Assembly (NCBI GenBank): GCA_041660745.1
Contig: JBAZVT010000003.1
Location: forward strand, 1,880-65,879
Direction: 5' to 3'
Length of the DNA: 64,000 nt
From: Minisyncoccota bacterium
Lineage (GTDB): Bacteria > Patescibacteriota > Minisyncoccia > Phycocordibacterales > JBAZVT01
Position 1 is the stretch's first letter; every line of letters begins with the position of its first letter. Of the stretch, positions 45,784-50,185 are shown piece by piece. Made by a program: the position numbers and the translations under genes. The notes under the pieces are model-generated. The model was given only the letters and a program-made list of their open reading frames with translations, had not been told where the DNA came from and did no database searches.

Positions 45784-48700
45784 TTATTCTTCTTTTACCT
45801 CGTGTCCACCTTCAACAAAAATAATTTCCGGCACAACAACTTCTTCCGTTTGTAATTCTAATACCTCTAAAGGTTTATTTAGGGCATCATTTTTTTCCTC
45901 AACAACACCCTCCCCGCTTTCTAAATTATCGGGTTCTTTGTATTCATCGGCAATAGGTGTGGGAGTCTCTCCTTCTGTTTTTTCTTCAGAACTCACAGGG
46001 ACCTCCTCTTCCGTTTTTTCTAAAGTAGTGCTTGCTATTGATGCAGATTCCGTTTCTTCTAACATGGCCATTTGCATAGCACCGAAGACACCATCTTCGT
46101 GTATTTCAATAGCCTCAGAAAGAAGTGCAACAGTCACTGGATCTTCTGCATATGCGAGCTTAGGATTTCCTGACGGCACAGCATCAAACCATGGTGAAAA
46201 ATCGACAAGACCAAAGACTGAATCCCCCACTGCAAGATTATTTTTTATCTCTTCAAATGGCCCCGTCGCGTCACCCCACCAATTTTCTTGTGCGAGGATA
46301 GTATTTTCACCCGTAGAAAGAATGCCGTTTGAACGATTTCCAAATATTTGACTGCGAGCAACCGAAGCACTGTCCCCAAAGAAAAGAATCCCATATTCAT
46401 TACGGGCAAGTGTACTTGAAGCAATCACAACTTTCCCATCATCAAATATCCCAACACCCTCAGCTTCATTATCTGAAATATTTGAATTTGTAATCGTCAT
46501 TAAACCCGATGCCAAACTATTTCCAAATATTTCTACACCTGCACCACAATAAGAAATATCTGCATCAGAAATTTCTGCGGAAGAATTGTCGTATACATAC
46601 ACCCCTACCCCGTCCACACGGGAAATATTTGGACGTGTGACTTGGGCGGTGCTATTGGCATATATAGACAAAGCATCTCCAGAAATATTTGAAAGAGCGA
46701 GGTCAGAAAAAATCCCATGAGAATCCATGTACAGATTAATTCCGCCCGTAGTATTTTCAGCGCGCACGTCAGAAAGAGTGACCTCGGCCCCGTCGTATGC
46801 ATTCACAATGGAATCACCGCCAGAAATACTAGTATCCTGTATCGCAAGCGTACACTGTCTACAGGTGACGGTATCAGTATATGGAGAGCCTGTGATTGTG
46901 CTGTTTGAAATAACCACTGAAGAACTTGCCTGTGCACTTATTCCATCCTCAAGTTTTTTTATTTTTGTATATCCAAATACATTTCCTACAGACCCTGAAT
47001 AAAACTCCGTTGCACCAGTGCCATATTCAGAGAGTTCCCCATTATCAGAAGACCTCAAATCTCCCCCGACAGAATCATCTGTAAATTCAGTAAAAATAAC
47101 TGGATTGTCTGATGTGCCAAGCGACTTGATAGTACCCTCCACAGAAAGTCCTGTTGCATAACTCCCCCAACTTCCATTATCGTAAAATTTTACAATCGTC
47201 CCAGGCAAGAGTGTCAGCGTTGTTCCTGAAGCGACGTGTATATTACCTTCAAACACATACGGACTTTCTTCTGGAGTGAGTATCATATCTTCTGTAAAAG
47301 TTTCCCCTCTATACCACACAGTCGAAACACTGTTACGTGACTTTGGCGTGCCTAGGATATATCCATCTTTTGAATCTTTTCCATTTGCAATTTCTCCGGT
47401 GTTCGCATTCCAGTTTTCATAATCAAATCCCCCAACATACGGCGAGACCCGTTCCATGGTTCTTTTGTCACCAGTATCATTACTCCCCCCTGGCCAACTT
47501 CCTTCAACCAACACTGTCGTGTCTATGGTTGTAGATCCGTAATTTAGATTCAATATAACACCACTATTGTTGAGAGCTCCGACATATACAAGGTCTGCTT
47601 GGATATCTGAAACAGAAGTATTGTCTGTTCTCTCCAAGAGAAAGTAGCCATGGGCAGGAATTGTTTTTGATAATGAAATACGCGGTGTTCCAGTAGCTTT
47701 ACTATTAACAAGAGCCCAGCCCGAAAGATCTATATCATACGGAGTCGTGTTATACAGCTCCAACCATTCATCATTAGCATCAGCCTCTGTGCCCATCCAA
47801 GCAACTTCATTAATAACTACAGGCATCGTCGCAACAGACACACTCACTGCAACAGGCTCAGAATCACCACCTGCATTGTGTGCTGAGACAGTAAATTGTA
47901 AGTCACTTCTATCATCAACAACCACGCTGAGCCCAGAGTATGTGGTTGTAGAAACAAGACCGTTTAAATTAAATGTAAAATATTCAGCAATACCAAGAGA
48001 TTCATCTGCTTGCCAGGTCAACGTCAGGGTTGTTGTTGCAACTAGACAGCCAGTCGAGACGAGAGACTGCGAACACTCAGCGACTGAAAAATTTGTAACT
48101 CCAGGAAGCTCAGGAAGAAACGGTGACGGGATTACAGGAACCTCCGGTTCTCCGGGAGATGCTGTGTGGCGGGATCTATTTGACCCAGAATAAATAACCT
48201 GTGTTGGGTTATAAAAAGGCGCAAACACCCCAGTTGGGAAATTTGCGTCAGCTACTTTTGATTGATCTATAAAGCTCGGTGTAGAATTAAGTTCCAATCC
48301 CTCACCCTCATCAAGGACTGTGGTGATACTATTAGTAGTCTTTGACTGTAAAAAAGTAATTGATTTTATTGCAGACTGTGCAAAAGTCTGAGCACTTTCA
48401 CCTGTCTTTTTCGCAACAACCGTTGCTGTTGTCTTTCCGGTATATCCAAGAACGGAAGCGATATTCCCACCCGTTTGCACTGTCCACAACGTTCCATAAT
48501 TAGCACCCCTCCAGGCGCTTGTCGCAACTTTTGCCACAGGTGCACCTATGTAATCTGAGAAAAGATACGCAAAGCCAATTGGTATAAGTTGAAAAATATT
48601 TTTCTTCGCAAGACCCTCAGCAAGCTCTTTATCCTTCAGCGCCTCTTCTACTTGCTCCTGCTTTTGCTCTGCAAGATATTCCTCGCGCGCCGCTTTCGCC

Positions 48701-49575
48701 TCTTTCAAAAACAGCTCTATCACTCCCGCCGACGCCAGCACAGCTTGTTTTGAAAGACGATCAAAGTAGGAAGAGAGGACGGAGTCAGAAAAATAATATG
48801 TCCTTACACCATCCAAACTTATTTTTGTATTTAAAATTTCATATTTTTGGTTATCCAAACCGTCAACACCATAAATAACTGACCCGTCAGAATTTTCAAT
48901 TTCTGGATTTTCAAAATAATTTTCTGAATTATCTATTGTATCTGCACTAAAAAAATTCTTATTTGAGTAGTCTGCAAGATATTCAAAATATTCTGAGATG
49001 TCTGAAAAAGTTATTGGTTCATATCTCCGGTCAACATATTCCTTTGCAGTGCCCGTAAGCGCACTACCATCTTTCCTGCGAGCCCAATTCTCATAAGGAC
49101 TATCTCCTGTATATAACCCGGAAGCACCGTCTCCTTTATGTGGATCATTTCTTGTATGTTCAGGAACAGTCATATCCTGAATAAGATGCAGTACATGACC
49201 TAGCGACAAGAACGCTTTATTATCATTCCCCTCAGCATAATATTGGATCGCTTTTGGCCAAGAAAATTCATTAGCAACAAGCACCCCATCCGTACCCCAA
49301 TCTTTTGCTGAGCGATAGTTATTAAAACCGATTTCTCCTCTCGGATCATAAAAATGATTGAGGGCTCGAATCCCAGCATCCTCATCGACTGATCCCTGAA
49401 TAATTAAACGTTTTTCTGAATCATGTATTTTATCCGTTATGGACTGTAAATTATAAAACTCTATCCCCTGCTCGGTTATGCCAGGGTGAGTTGTTCCAGA
49501 ATGGTATGCACTCACAAAAAATATAGCCCCAAGAAATAAAGGCCCAAAAAACATTCTAAAAAATATCTTTTTCAT
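45784..49575 (-). CDS. 1263-aa secreted multidomain protein: zinc phospholipase C/P1-nuclease-like domain, lamin-tail domain (LTD), right-handed beta-helix repeats, acidic tail
   Basis: Signal peptide MKKIFFRMFFGPLFLGAIFFVSA. The PLC-like zinc motifs are TTHPGITEQG, NHFYDP and LGHVLHLIQDMTVPEHTRN (compare alpha-toxin GTHAMIVTQG, DHFWDP and GEAMHYFGDIDTPYHPAN). The LTD is VVINEVAWMGTEADANDEWLELYNTTPYDIDLSGWAL. PbH1-like repeats include ITNSNISDNEAEGVGIF, ARNEYGILFFG and IFGNRSNGILS. Confidence 0.85.
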   Translation of the reverse strand: MKKIFFRMFFGPLFLGAIFFVSAYHSGTTHPGITEQGIEFYNLQSITDKIHDSEKRLIIQGSVDEDAGIRALNHFYDPRGEIGFNNYRSAKDWGTDGVLVANEFSWPKAIQYYAEGNDNKAFLSLGHVLHLIQDMTVPEHTRNDPHKGDGASGLYTGDSPYENWARRKDGSALTGTAKEYVDRRYEPITFSDISEYFEYLADYSNKNFFSADTIDNSENYFENPEIENSDGSVIYGVDGLDNQKYEILNTKISLDGVRTYYFSDSVLSSYFDRLSKQAVLASAGVIELFLKEAKAAREEYLAEQKQEQVEEALKDKELAEGLAKKNIFQLIPIGFAYLFSDYIGAPVAKVATSAWRGANYGTLWTVQTGGNIASVLGYTGKTTATVVAKKTGESAQTFAQSAIKSITFLQSKTTNSITTVLDEGEGLELNSTPSFIDQSKVADANFPTGVFAPFYNPTQVIYSGSNRSRHTASPGEPEVPVIPSPFLPELPGVTNFSVAECSQSLVSTGCLVATTTLTLTWQADESLGIAEYFTFNLNGLVSTTTYSGLSVVVDDRSDLQFTVSAHNAGGDSEPVAVSVSVATMPVVINEVAWMGTEADANDEWLELYNTTPYDIDLSGWALVNSKATGTPRISLSKTIPAHGYFLLERTDNTSVSDIQADLVYVGALNNSGVILNLNYGSTTIDTTVLVEGSWPGGSNDTGDKRTMERVSPYVGGFDYENWNANTGEIANGKDSKDGYILGTPKSRNSVSTVWYRGETFTEDMILTPEESPYVFEGNIHVASGTTLTLLPGTIVKFYDNGSWGSYATGLSVEGTIKSLGTSDNPVIFTEFTDDSVGGDLRSSDNGELSEYGTGATEFYSGSVGNVFGYTKIKKLEDGISAQASSSVVISNSTITGSPYTDTVTCRQCTLAIQDTSISGGDSIVNAYDGAEVTLSDVRAENTTGGINLYMDSHGIFSDLALSNISGDALSIYANSTAQVTRPNISRVDGVGVYVYDNSSAEISDADISYCGAGVEIFGNSLASGLMTITNSNISDNEAEGVGIFDDGKVVIASSTLARNEYGILFFGDSASVARSQIFGNRSNGILSTGENTILAQENWWGDATGPFEEIKNNLAVGDSVFGLVDFSPWFDAVPSGNPKLAYAEDPVTVALLSEAIEIHEDGVFGAMQMAMLEETESASIASTTLEKTEEEVPVSSEEKTEGETPTPIADEYKEPDNLESGEGVVEEKNDALNKPLEVLELQTEEVVVPEIIFVEGGHEVKEE

Positions 49576-49576
49576 G

Positions 49577-50185
49577 TTAGTTTTCTATTTTCCAAATATT
49601 TTTATAAGGATTTAACACGAATCCCACAGACCAATTTTCCTTACTACCTGCAGGAGTTGTAAAAGAGTATTCCCTCCCAGCTATTACACTAGAAGAAGTA
49701 GCTGCTTCTGTTGTCACATGAACGCTAGTAAAAAAGCACACTTCCTTGATGATGCCGGGGCCATTAGAACCTATATATTTTTCACACTTCTTAAATCCAG
49801 AATCTCTGACAACAGTAAGATAATTAAACATGAAACTCTTTTTTTCTTCTGACTCAAAGACACTCCTCAGACTCTCCTTTTGTTTTTCTTGCATTTCGAC
49901 AACATAATATTTGCTTGCCTCTTCAAGATTATTCTTCTTAAGAGCTGCAATAAACATATCCAACGTCCCCTCAGGCGTAGTACTCCCCATTGTGTCTTTC
50001 TTGTATGCCTCCTCCAGTTTCTGTCTTGGCTCTACAACCAATCTATTATAAATCGCTTCCTGACGTTGGTTCTCCATCCACAACGTAATCTTCTCACCGT
50101 ACACACCTAGAAAATAAAAAAGAATAAAAAGAGCAACAATAACAACCCCGCCAACAATGAGAGATTTTTTCAAAAAAGGAGACAT
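49577..50185 (-). CDS. Hypothetical membrane-anchored protein co-transcribed with the 1263-aa gene
   Basis: N-terminal TM segment and a small alpha+beta domain. Its stop lies 1 nt before the start of the downstream gene. Confidence 0.6.
   Translation of the reverse strand: MSPFLKKSLIVGGVVIVALFILFYFLGVYGEKITLWMENQRQEAIYNRLVVEPRQKLEEAYKKDTMGSTTPEGTLDMFIAALKKNNLEEASKYYVVEMQEKQKESLRSVFESEEKKSFMFNYLTVVRDSGFKKCEKYIGSNGPGIIKEVCFFTSVHVTTEAATSSSVIAGREYSFTTPAGSKENWSVGFVLNPYKNIWKIEN

What the first reader, a model, noticed from the sequence alone, without database searches (positions are those of the whole stretch)
45784..50185. Giant secreted phospholipase-C-like / lamin-tail-domain / beta-helix protein with a co-transcribed membrane partner
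The 1263-aa ORF combines the following parts:
1. A signal peptide.
2. An N-terminal domain whose zinc-ligand motifs align with the Zn-dependent phospholipase C / S1-P1 nuclease fold: TTHPGITEQG, NHFYDP and LGHVLHLIQDMTVPEHTRN.
3. An LTD (INEVAWMG...DEWLELYN...DLSGWAL).
4. A long parallel beta-helix with PbH1-type repeats.
5. A Glu-rich tail.

I do not know of this exact architecture having been characterised. In a small-genome organism with little biosynthesis, an exported lipase/nuclease fused to adhesion-type domains is a plausible tool for attacking or harvesting from a host cell or from environmental membranes and DNA. That is inference. The upstream 202-aa membrane-anchored protein ends 1 nt before the start of the giant gene, suggesting a functional pair.
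Basis: partly seen in the sequence, partly recalled or inferred. Interest (0 to 1): 0.6.

Follow-up and report, generated by a model that had tools for sequence, protein, structure and literature searches.

The report
Exported phospholipase-C-like enzyme with conserved partner
An ultra-small (Patescibacteria) bacterium encodes a large exported protein whose front end is a divergent zinc phospholipase-C-type enzyme, always paired with a small membrane-anchored helper protein. This uncharacterised two-gene unit is conserved across this bacterial group and may be how these lipid-dependent cells act on other cells' membranes.

Summary
Both ORFs, the quoted motifs and the 1-nt junction are present.

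**Domains.** Pfam confirms the LTD and the beta-helix. The N-terminal domain misses Pfam's Zn-PLC cut-off. A profile of 30 homologues matches solved bacterial PLCs (E 1e-5). An AlphaFold model (pLDDT 87) finds Bacillus PC-PLC, Listeria PlcB and alpha-toxin as best folds. S1/P1 nucleases match far more weakly.

**Metal ligands.** The residues aligned to PLC His69, His118, Asp122, His128, Glu146 and Asp55 are invariant in 85 homologues. The His142 position is not conserved. A signal-peptidase site (-1 A/G/S, +1 Tyr) would expose an aromatic N-terminus, as in PLC and P1 nuclease.

**New result.** The 202-aa neighbour is a single-pass membrane protein with an NTF2-like (DUF4878-like) ectodomain. 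A homologue lies upstream on the same strand in 80 of 80 related loci (76 tightly adjacent). Three of three look-ups starting from partner homologues found the enzyme domain downstream.

**Best reading.** This is a core-genome, Patescibacteria-wide cassette. It encodes a secreted tri-metal phosphodiesterase, probably acting on phospholipids, with variable binding modules. The partner binds its conserved catalytic domain, as a dock and/or self-protecting inhibitor.

Substrate and partner role are inferred. I found no literature on it.

The parts
49577..50185 (-). Partner gene (202 aa). It encodes a single-pass membrane protein with an NTF2-like/DUF4878-like ectodomain.
50096..50164 (-). Partner N-terminal transmembrane anchor (about aa 8-30). 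It continues as a helical stalk to aa 63.
   Evidence: A hydrophobic stretch is seen in every member of alignment A3. The model has one continuous helix over aa 3-63. There is no lipobox Cys and no small-residue cleavage motif (read from the sequence).
49580..49996 (-). Partner ectodomain (aa 64-202). It carries the family motif D-x2-GG-x-TPEET...ALKKGD-x-ELASKY and a C-terminal WKI.
   Evidence: Alignments A3 and A4. Invariant residues are D64, G67, T70, P71, T74, A81, A90, K92, Y93, W198 and K199.
49573..49579 (-). Stop/start junction (TAA C ATG) with a 1-nt spacer and no clear Shine-Dalgarno sequence. Translational coupling is likely.
   Evidence: Sequence. In related loci the two genes are separated by about 0-30 nt or overlap.
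49507..49575 (-). Signal peptide of the large protein (aa 1-23). Predicted cleavage is VSA|Y.
   Evidence: Hydropathy. Across 81 homologues, -1 is A/G/S in all, -3 is small or aliphatic in all, and +1 is Y (78), F (2) or W (1).
48676..49506 (-). Zn-phospholipase-C-like catalytic domain (aa 24-300). Candidate metal ligands are the Y24 N-terminus, H30, D66, H74, H130, D134, H140, (H146) and E162.
   Evidence: Invariant residues. PDB profile hits are 8cqm and 1ah7. hhalign. The AF2 model has pLDDT 87. Foldseek.
47830..48675 (-). Charged helical extension plus an uncharacterised Ser/Thr/Gly-rich and Ig-like-looking region (aa 301-582).
   Evidence: No Pfam family passes threshold; there is only a weak DUF1970 hit. 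The region is conserved to about aa 400-420 in a subset of homologues.
47551..47829 (-). Lamin-tail domain (aa 583-675).
   Evidence: PF00932 at E 2e-11 and 1.2e-11. It is present in most homologues.
46282..46959 (-). Right-handed parallel beta-helix (aa about 873-1098; the repeats probably start near aa 770).
   Evidence: PF13229 at 7e-21 and 8e-23; PF05048 at 3e-7 and 6e-10.
45787..46158 (-). Glu-rich C-terminal tail (aa 1140-1263), specific to this lineage.
   Evidence: 30 Glu in 124 aa. The closest full-length homologues end near query aa 1130. There is no Pfam hit.

Best explanation
This is a two-gene operon that belongs to the core genome of Parcubacteria/Paceibacteria-type Patescibacteria.

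**Gene 2, the large protein (shown or strongly supported).**
- It is exported by Sec. Signal peptidase cuts after Ala23 and exposes Tyr24.
- Residues 24-300 form an all-alpha domain homologous to bacterial zinc-dependent phospholipase C. Its relatives are Bacillus PC-PLC, Listeria PlcB and the clostridial alpha-toxin N-domain.
- Most of the tri-metal site is retained: H30, D66, H74, H130, D134, H140 and E162, plus the free N-terminus.
- The third metal site is remodelled around a family-specific HTRNDPH motif.

**Catalysis (inferred).** I infer an active metallo-phosphodiesterase. Its most likely substrate is the phosphodiester of membrane phospholipids, which would yield diacylglycerol and a phosphorylated head group.

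**C-terminal modules (inferred).** The variable modules are an LTD and a beta-helix here, and PKD, Big, fn3 and others in relatives. They probably bind a foreign cell surface or polymer and so set the target.

**Gene 1, the partner.**
- It is translated just before gene 2 and is probably translationally coupled to it.
- It is a single-pass membrane protein with a long helical stalk and an extracytoplasmic NTF2-like (DUF4878-like) domain.
- It accompanies the catalytic domain whatever the C-terminal architecture. I therefore infer that it binds that domain.
- Two roles are plausible and not mutually exclusive. It could hold the otherwise anchorless enzyme on the producer's surface. It could keep the enzyme inactive next to the producer's own, scavenged, phospholipid membrane.
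For: **Homology of the catalytic domain.**
- The profile of 30 N-domains hits 8cqm (PlcB) at E 1.2e-5 and 1ah7 and its variants at about 3e-4.
- In that alignment H74, H130, D134, H140, E162 and D66 lie on PLC H69, H118, D122, H128, E146 and D55.
- hhalign against PC-PLC gives 93.5% probability.
- 18 of 30 members touch PF00882 and none touch PF02265.

**Fold.**
- The AF2 model has pLDDT 87.2 and pTM 0.85.
- The 17 best Foldseek PDB hits are all Zn-PLCs, with E down to 4e-5 and target TM-score 0.62.

**Conservation.**
- H30, E65, D66, H74, H130, D134, H140, R142 and E162 are invariant in 85 homologues.
- Y24, H127 and H146 are nearly invariant.

**Processing.**
- The signal-peptidase motif and an aromatic +1 residue occur in 81 of 81 homologues.
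- The domain sits at the extreme N-terminus in all 150 best representatives.

**Pairing.**
- A partner homologue lies upstream on the same strand in 80 of 80 loci, and 76 are tightly adjacent.
- 6 of 6 loci recovered by exact look-up of homologues show the same arrangement.
- 3 of 3 reverse look-ups find the PLC-like domain directly downstream of the partner.
- The spacer here is 1 nt.

**Core-genome setting.** The cassette lies beside ribosomal-protein and rRNA genes in the window and in L001, L003 and L004.

**Background from papers.**
- CPR bacteria are thought to obtain membrane lipids from other cells (bioRxiv 10.1101/465690).
- NTF2-like domains act as extracytoplasmic ligand binders, as partners of hydrolases and as immunity proteins (PMC3924330).
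Against: - The window protein itself scores below Pfam's curated cut-off for PF00882 (18.7-22 bits against 26.8).
- The counterpart of PLC His142 is not conserved, so the third metal site differs from the canonical one.
- The N-terminal ligands (Y24, H30) are assigned by position and fold, not by a significant sequence alignment.
- Nothing here identifies the substrate. The choline-pocket residues of PC-PLC were not traced.
- LTDs also occur in extracellular nucleases (my own knowledge).
- No interaction between the two proteins was computed or measured.
- The partner's own sequence gives no Pfam hit, and Foldseek against PDB found nothing significant.
Confidence: 0.55

Rival explanations
1. 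The N-terminal domain is an S1/P1-type nuclease. It would degrade extracellular DNA or RNA so that a cell lacking nucleotide synthesis can import nucleotides. The LTD would bind nucleic acid.
For: - PLC and S1/P1 nucleases share the same fold and tri-zinc chemistry.
- The spacing from the predicted N-terminus to the first His (Y24 to H30, six residues) resembles P1 nuclease (W1/H6) more than PC-PLC (W1/H14). This comes from the sequence plus my own knowledge.
- Plant S1/P1 nucleases appear in the fold search at E 0.2-0.5.
- LTDs are found in some extracellular nucleases (my own knowledge).
Against: - No member of the family touches PF02265, whereas 18 of 30 touch PF00882.
- The PDB profile search returns only PLCs.
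- The Foldseek E-value is about 5000-fold better for PLCs.
- hhalign probability is 5.9% against P1 nuclease and 93.5% against PC-PLC. The PC-PLC stretch 67-160 agrees.
Confidence: 0.2
2. The enzyme acts on the producer's own envelope or on a non-lipid, non-nucleic-acid phosphodiester. Examples are teichoic-acid-like polymers or head-group remodelling of scavenged lipids. In this reading the partner is a substrate-presenting or regulatory subunit. No other cell is attacked.
For: - The cassette is a core-genome gene pair among housekeeping genes, not a mobile or polymorphic toxin locus.
- The catalytic domain is the conserved part.
- The remodelled third metal site and the invariant R142/N143/D144 suggest a specificity different from classical PLCs.
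- NTF2-like domains typically bind small molecules (PMC3924330).
Against: The large, rapidly varying adhesin-type C-terminal modules (LTD, beta-helix, PKD, Big, fn3) are easier to explain by recognition of diverse external surfaces than by a housekeeping reaction on the cell's own envelope. There is no direct evidence either way.
Confidence: 0.15
3. The N-terminal domain is a catalytically dead structural or adhesive module. The neighbouring small gene is adjacent only by chance.
For: The match is below Pfam's threshold for the single sequence. One canonical ligand position is lost.
Against: - Eight candidate ligand positions are invariant or nearly so across 85 sequences that share only 30-50% identity. 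This is typical of a working active site.
- Adjacency holds in 80 of 80 loci and in 3 of 3 reverse look-ups, which excludes chance.
Confidence: 0.05

Closest known systems
Bacterial zinc-dependent phospholipases C (Pfam PF00882): Bacillus cereus PC-PLC (1ah7), Listeria monocytogenes PlcB (8cqm) and the N-domain of Clostridium perfringens alpha-toxin (1ca1)
   Same: - All-alpha fold.
- HFYDP motif and H-x3-D-x5-H motif.
- A Glu on the following helix and an Asp ahead of HFYDP.
- A secreted enzyme whose mature N-terminal aromatic residue is created by processing.
- These are the best sequence-profile and fold matches.
   Different: - Only about 15% identity, and below Pfam's gathering score.
- Tyr replaces Trp at the N-terminus, which lies only six residues from the first His.
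- There is no propeptide.
- The His142 position is not conserved. An invariant HTRNDPH motif is specific to this family.
- There is an extra beta-hairpin sheet (aa 226-261) and a long C-terminal helix.
- The domain is fused to about 950 residues of LTD, beta-helix and other modules.
- It is obligatorily linked to an NTF2-like membrane protein.
S1/P1 nucleases (Pfam PF02265; e.g. plant TBN1/AtBFN2, 3sng/4cwm)
   Same: Same superfold and tri-zinc ligand logic. The spacing from the N-terminus to the first His is short.
   Different: No profile match. The fold match is weak (E 0.2-0.5). hhalign probability is 5.9%.
DUF4878 (Pfam PF12870) and other extracytoplasmic NTF2-like domains (3k7c; PMC3924330)
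   Same: - A conserved Gly early in the domain and a conserved Trp near the C-terminus.
- Membrane-tethered and extracytoplasmic.
- Known association with hydrolases.
   Different: - The window protein gives no Pfam hit. Homologues give only sub-threshold hits.
- It is anchored by a transmembrane helix plus a roughly 30-residue stalk instead of a lipobox.
- It has its own strongly conserved GGKTPEET...ELASKY motif.
- It is specifically linked to a PLC-like gene.
Phospholipase effector / immunity pairs (e.g. T6SS Tle-Tli) and NTF2-fold immunity proteins of polymorphic toxin systems (PMC3482391, PMC9860674)
   Same: A membrane-damaging hydrolase is encoded next to a small extracytoplasmic, membrane-tethered protein. 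NTF2-like folds are used as immunity proteins.
   Different: - The candidate immunity gene is upstream here.
- The catalytic domain is the conserved N-terminal part, not a variable C-terminal toxin tip.
- Export is by Sec, not by a dedicated secretion system.
- The locus lies among housekeeping genes.
- Inhibition has not been shown.

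Membership tests
Zn-dependent phospholipase C (PF00882) | Score at or above Pfam's curated gathering threshold (26.8 bits) | tested here: not met
   18.7 bits for the full protein and 22 bits for the isolated domain. 18 of 30 family members match at E<0.1, with a best value of 2.3e-5.
Zn-dependent phospholipase C (PF00882) | Statistically supported homology to solved PLCs at the profile level | tested here: met
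   hmmsearch of profile A1 against PDB gives 8cqm at E 1.2e-5 and 1ah7, 2fgn, 1p5x at 2-4e-4. The next hit is at 0.085. hhalign probability is 93.5%.
Zn-dependent phospholipase C (PF00882) | All-alpha PLC/P1-nuclease fold | tested here: met
   The AF2 model has pLDDT 87. Foldseek PDB ranks 1-17 are all Zn-PLCs, with E from 4e-5 and target TM-score 0.62.
Zn-dependent phospholipase C (PF00882) | Nine zinc ligands (Trp1 N/O, His14, Asp55, His69, His118, Asp122, His128, His142, Glu146 in PC-PLC; numbering from my own knowledge) | tested here: inconclusive
   - H74, H130, D134, H140, E162 and D66 align to H69, H118, D122, H128, E146 and D55 and are invariant.
- H30 and Y24 are invariant or nearly so, but are assigned by position and fold only.
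- The His142 column is not conserved. Nearly invariant H146 may substitute.
- The geometry could not be measured because no model coordinates were available.
Zn-dependent phospholipase C (PF00882) | Mature N-terminus generated by proteolytic processing, so that the alpha-amino group can bind zinc | tested here: met
   This is a sequence-level test only. A hydrophobic presequence is present. Position -1 is A/G/S in 81 of 81, -3 is small or aliphatic in 81 of 81, and +1 is Y, F or W in 81 of 81. The domain is always at the extreme N-terminus.
Zn-dependent phospholipase C (PF00882) | Hydrolysis of phospholipids to diacylglycerol plus a phosphorylated head group | not testable with these tools
   Needs an enzyme assay.
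S1/P1 nuclease (PF02265) | Profile match to the family | tested here: not met
   No PF02265 hit at E<=1 for the window protein or at E<=0.1 for 30 members. Fold matches reach only E 0.2-0.5. hhalign probability is 5.9%.
Lamin-tail domain (PF00932) | Profile match above the gathering score | tested here: met
   44.7 and 45.4 bits against a cut-off of 34.3, over aa 583-675.
Right-handed parallel beta-helix (PF13229 / NosD PF05048) | Profile match above the gathering score | tested here: met
   74.9 and 81.2 bits against 25.9. NosD scores 30.3 and 39.3 bits against 23.6.
NTF2-like superfamily / DUF4878 (partner) | NTF2-like alpha+beta cone fold | tested here: met
   [not shown]
NTF2-like superfamily / DUF4878 (partner) | PF12870 match above threshold | tested here: not met
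   The window partner gives no Pfam family. 19 of 31 homologues match only weakly, with a best value of 5e-4.
Toxin-immunity pair (phospholipase effector with cognate immunity protein) | Adjacent, co-oriented genes conserved as a pair | tested here: met
   80 of 80 loci. 3 of 3 reverse look-ups.
Toxin-immunity pair (phospholipase effector with cognate immunity protein) | Variable toxin domain on a conserved delivery scaffold; accessory or mobile genomic location | tested here: not met
   The catalytic domain is the conserved part and the C-terminus varies. The loci sit among ribosomal, rRNA and cell-division genes.
Toxin-immunity pair (phospholipase effector with cognate immunity protein) | The immunity protein binds and neutralises the enzyme | not testable with these tools
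   Complex prediction with paired alignments was not possible under the tool's input rules. It needs biochemistry.

The most novel reading that the evidence does not exclude
The cassette is the Parcubacteria-wide device for taking lipids from other cells. The Sec-exported PLC-like enzyme is aimed by its variable LTD, beta-helix or PKD modules. It cuts head groups off a host's membrane phospholipids. The membrane-anchored NTF2-like partner stands on a helical stalk. It docks the enzyme away from the producer's own bilayer, and its hydrophobic cone receives the diacylglycerol product and passes it into the symbiont's membrane. That would give a molecular answer to how bacteria without fatty-acid or lipid synthesis build membranes.
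Probability: 0.15. Interest if true: 0.85.

Novelty: new variant of a known kind. Interest (0 to 1): 0.62.

Why it matters
Patescibacteria (CPR) make up a large share of bacterial diversity. They generally lack lipid and nucleotide synthesis, and how they obtain these compounds from hosts is largely unknown at the molecular level.

This finding defines a very large family that is unannotated apart from LTD and beta-helix labels. The profile finds 7188 representatives at 50% identity. The partner profile finds at least 1837 clusters.

The family is a divergent exported zinc phosphodiesterase of the phospholipase C type, locked to a dedicated NTF2-like membrane partner in every locus examined. 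That gives a concrete two-protein target for biochemistry:
- activity on phospholipids versus nucleic acids;
- partner binding or inhibition;
- localisation at the symbiont-host contact.

It also gives a better annotation for thousands of 'hypothetical' or 'LTD domain-containing' genes. If the substrate is host phospholipid, the cassette bears directly on the open question of lipid acquisition by CPR bacteria.

Tried and rejected
- **Single sequence against PDB.** phmmer with the N-domain alone found nothing. A family profile was needed.
- **NCBIfam.** No match for either protein.
- **PADLOC defence models.** No match for the two genes or for the neighbouring Y1 gene.
- **Exact look-up of the window protein's contig.** Not on record.
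- **Word-based homologue search with the partner alone.** It found only one distant relative and wrongly suggested an orphan. Synteny, then a profile, revealed the family.
- **LTD plus beta-helix part against PDB by sequence.** No hit.
- **An internal transmembrane segment in the large protein.** Considered and rejected. No segment apart from the signal peptide reaches transmembrane hydropathy; aa 574-594 is a strand at the start of the LTD.
- **Zinc-site geometry.** It could not be measured because model coordinates are not exposed to the script environment.
- **Paired-alignment complex prediction of partner plus N-domain.** Not attempted.
- **Literature.** Five full-text searches and targeted reads found no description of this family or of the pairing.
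- **Mirror-tree or co-variation analysis of the pair.** Considered and dropped. Eighty pairs are too few, and shared phylogeny would dominate the signal.

Full report
**1. The observation**

The window carries two ORFs on the minus strand: 45784-49575 (1263 aa) and 49577-50185 (202 aa). The junction reads TAA-C-ATG, so one base separates the two genes. No obvious Shine-Dalgarno sequence precedes the ATG.

Hydropathy shows a single segment of transmembrane strength, the N-terminal signal peptide. The last 124 residues contain 30 Glu.

The exact protein exists in public data as a 'right-handed parallel beta-helix repeat-containing protein' of a Candidatus Paceibacterota MAG. It has 87 further homologues, all from Patescibacteria.

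**2. Domain tests**

Pfam confirms three families: Beta_helix (7e-21), LTD (2e-11) and NosD-type beta-helix (3e-7). Zn_dep_PLPC reaches only E 0.0018 at 18.7 bits, below the 26.8-bit cut-off. PF02265 (S1/P1 nuclease) is absent. NCBIfam has nothing, and a single-sequence search of PDB is empty.

BLAST mapping of the 88 homologues shows that the first 300-400 residues are the conserved module. The rest varies: LTD nearly always, then beta-helix, PKD, Big, fn3 and others.

In an alignment of 85 N-domains, these residues are invariant: H30, E65, D66, H74, P78, W93, G126, H130, D134, P138, H140, R142, E162 and Y270. Y24, H127, D144 and H146 are nearly invariant (30-sequence alignment A1).

**3. Is the N-domain a PLC/P1-fold enzyme?**

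Sequence evidence:
- A profile of A1 searched against all PDB sequences returns only phospholipases C as significant hits. Listeria PlcB (8cqm) scores E 1.2e-5. Bacillus cereus PC-PLC (1ah7 and variants) scores 2-4e-4. The next hit is at 0.085.
- The printed alignments place H74 on PLC His69, H130 on His118, D134 on Asp122, H140 on His128 and E162 on Glu146. In the PlcB alignment, D66 falls on the Asp55 equivalent.
- PLC His142 falls on a non-conserved column.
- hhalign of A1 against the PC-PLC sequence gives 93.5% probability.
- hhalign against P1 nuclease (also from memory) gives 5.9%, limited to the H-x3-D-x5-H motif.
- Eighteen of 30 members touch PF00882 and none touch PF02265.

Structural evidence:
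- An AlphaFold2 model built with A1 has mean pLDDT 87.2 and pTM 0.85.
- Its 17 best Foldseek matches in PDB are all Zn-PLCs: PC-PLC, PlcB and clostridial alpha-toxins. E-values start at 4e-5 and the target-normalised TM-score is 0.62.
- S1/P1 nucleases follow at E 0.2-0.5.

The fold is therefore supported, and the domain is nearer to PLC than to the nucleases. It is a distinct subfamily with these differences:
- Tyr instead of Trp at the predicted mature N-terminus.
- Only six residues between that N-terminus and the first His.
- No propeptide.
- A family-specific invariant HTRNDPH motif.
- An added beta-hairpin sheet and a long C-terminal helix.

**4. Export and the N-terminus**

In 81 homologues with a presequence, I found the following:
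- The median presequence length is 26 residues, with a hydrophobic core.
- Position -1 is always A, G or S.
- Position -3 is always small or aliphatic.
- Position +1 is Tyr (78), Phe (2) or Trp (1).

In all 150 best representatives from a search of 1.84 billion proteins, the domain starts within the first few dozen residues.

In PLC and P1 nuclease the free amino group of the N-terminal aromatic residue is a zinc ligand (established knowledge). The conserved signal-peptidase site followed by an aromatic residue fits that arrangement.

**5. The partner**

A word-based search with the 202-aa protein found almost nothing. Contig look-ups of six homologues of the large protein told a different story. 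Each showed a small gene (155-195 aa) without Pfam annotation immediately upstream on the same strand. These proteins align with the window protein and share D-x2-GGKTPEET...ALKKGD-x-ELASKY and a C-terminal WKI.

Forward linkage:
- A scan of one genome per species (GTDB) with the N-domain profile found 345 encoding stretches. Eighty loci were fetched, almost all labelled as Patescibacteria/Parcubacteria MAGs (a few carry other labels).
- With an HMM of the partner, a homologue lies upstream on the same strand in 80 of the 80 loci that have at least 650 nt of upstream sequence.
- In 76 of these it lies within -80 to +150 nt of the start of the enzyme gene.

Reverse linkage:
- Three partner homologues on long contigs were looked up, and each is followed directly by the PLC-like domain.
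- One copy is intact, one is broken by frameshifts, and one locus has a truncated fragment plus a full copy.

Family size and fold:
- The partner profile recovers at least 1837 clusters, essentially unannotated. One record calls its protein 'DUF4878 domain-containing'.
- Nineteen of 31 members give weak PF12870 matches.
- The AlphaFold2 model has pLDDT 94.9. It shows one continuous helix over residues 3-63 (transmembrane segment plus stalk), followed by an alpha+beta domain.
- Foldseek finds nothing significant.

According to PMC3924330, DUF4878-type NTF2-like domains are extracytoplasmic, membrane-tethered, non-catalytic ligand binders. They are often associated with hydrolases, and NTF2-like domains serve as immunity proteins in polymorphic toxin systems.

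**6. Genomic setting**

The cassette sits among housekeeping genes.
- In the window, L10 and L7/L12 lie downstream, with 23S and 5S rRNA further on. FtsK, RecA, EF-P, S6, TatD and FtsW are nearby.
- In L003 and L004 it abuts ribosomal-protein operons. In L001 it abuts the 23S gene.

It is therefore a core-genome gene pair and not a mobile toxin locus. A roughly 200-nt spacer containing a 46-nt palindrome separates it from the upstream Y1-transposase-like gene, so the pair probably forms its own transcription unit.

**7. Mechanism**

Shown:
- Homology and fold of the N-domain.
- Conservation of eight candidate metal ligands.
- The signal-peptidase motif.
- The LTD and beta-helix modules.
- The NTF2-like, membrane-anchored nature of the partner.
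- The strict linkage of the two genes.

Inferred:
- The domain is an active tri-metal phosphodiesterase. I consider this likely, about 0.8.
- Its substrate is the phospholipid head-group ester, about 0.5. Nucleic acid is about 0.2, and other phosphodiesters make up the rest.
- The partner binds the catalytic domain, about 0.6. This rests on its co-occurrence with that domain irrespective of the C-terminal architecture and on the near-zero intergenic distance.
- The partner acts as a dock and/or a self-protecting inhibitor.

The docking idea rests on the absence of any anchor in the mature large protein. The self-protection idea rests on the absence of a propeptide and on the producer's own phospholipid membrane. 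A third possibility is that the NTF2 cone receives the lipid product. It is attractive but untested.

**8. Comparison and novelty**

The closest known enzymes are the bacterial Zn-PLCs. Membership in PF00882 by the curated threshold is not met, so I class this as a divergent sister subfamily within the PLC/P1-nuclease superfamily.

Five full-text searches and targeted reads found no description of the family or of its pairing with an NTF2-like protein. The background literature states that CPR bacteria probably take lipids from other cells (bioRxiv 10.1101/465690). It also mentions phospholipase genes in one CPR genome, as cited in PMC12455944.

I therefore rate the finding as a new variant of a known kind. 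It has moderate-to-high interest because of its breadth and its relevance to lipid or nutrient acquisition in Patescibacteria.

Noticed in passing
window 50340-51145: An IS200/Y1-transposase-like gene (231 aa, 50387-51082, minus strand) is flanked by two near-identical 42-46-nt perfect palindromes (50340-50385 and 51104-51145). This is a RAYT/REP-like arrangement. A homologous Y1 gene lies within 310 nt upstream of the partner gene in 20 of about 80 related loci, in either orientation. It therefore looks like a conserved neighbour and not a recent insertion.
   Followed up: partly
window 44300-45783: A 1.48-kb stretch between the large gene and rplJ has no convincing ORF in genetic codes 11, 4 or 25. 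Its GC content is raised (0.46). It holds a sub-threshold L10-leader match (44431-44619, minus strand) and a 14-bp hairpin followed by a T run (45439-45408, minus strand). No Rfam family matches, and there is no similarity to any fetched locus. The L11 and L1 genes usually found upstream of rplJ are not there.
   Followed up: partly
window 37251-40906: The 23S rRNA gene spans 3400 nt against a 2925-nt model, implying about 475 nt of insertion(s). No ORF of at least 130 aa lies inside it. 5S follows it. No 16S rRNA and no tRNA gene is found anywhere in the 64 kb.
   Followed up: no
window about 27000-28500: GC skew changes sign from positive to negative, and the cumulative skew peaks near 27 kb. 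This may mark a replication terminus or origin, or a switch in gene orientation.
   Followed up: no
window 51574-53490: A 638-aa secreted protein with a PG_binding_1 domain and long Thr/Val/Asp-rich repeats lies upstream. It is syntenic with L001 (646 aa).
   Followed up: no
L003 3464-5209; L005 2195-3670; L010, L011, L015, L016, L020, L024, L026, L042: A second family of secreted LTD/PKD proteins (293-581 aa) lies just upstream of the cassette in ten loci. This suggests a wider surface-protein neighbourhood.
   Followed up: no
L089 5515-6741; L090 5459-5746 and 6314-10231: In L089 the PLC-like gene behind the partner is split over three reading frames, either a pseudogene or long-read indel errors. 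L090 carries a truncated N-terminal fragment ahead of a full copy.
   Followed up: partly
window 49577-50185: The public annotation of the partner (P0089) is 198 aa. It appears to start at the TTG four codons downstream of the ATG used here, so the true start is uncertain.
   Followed up: no
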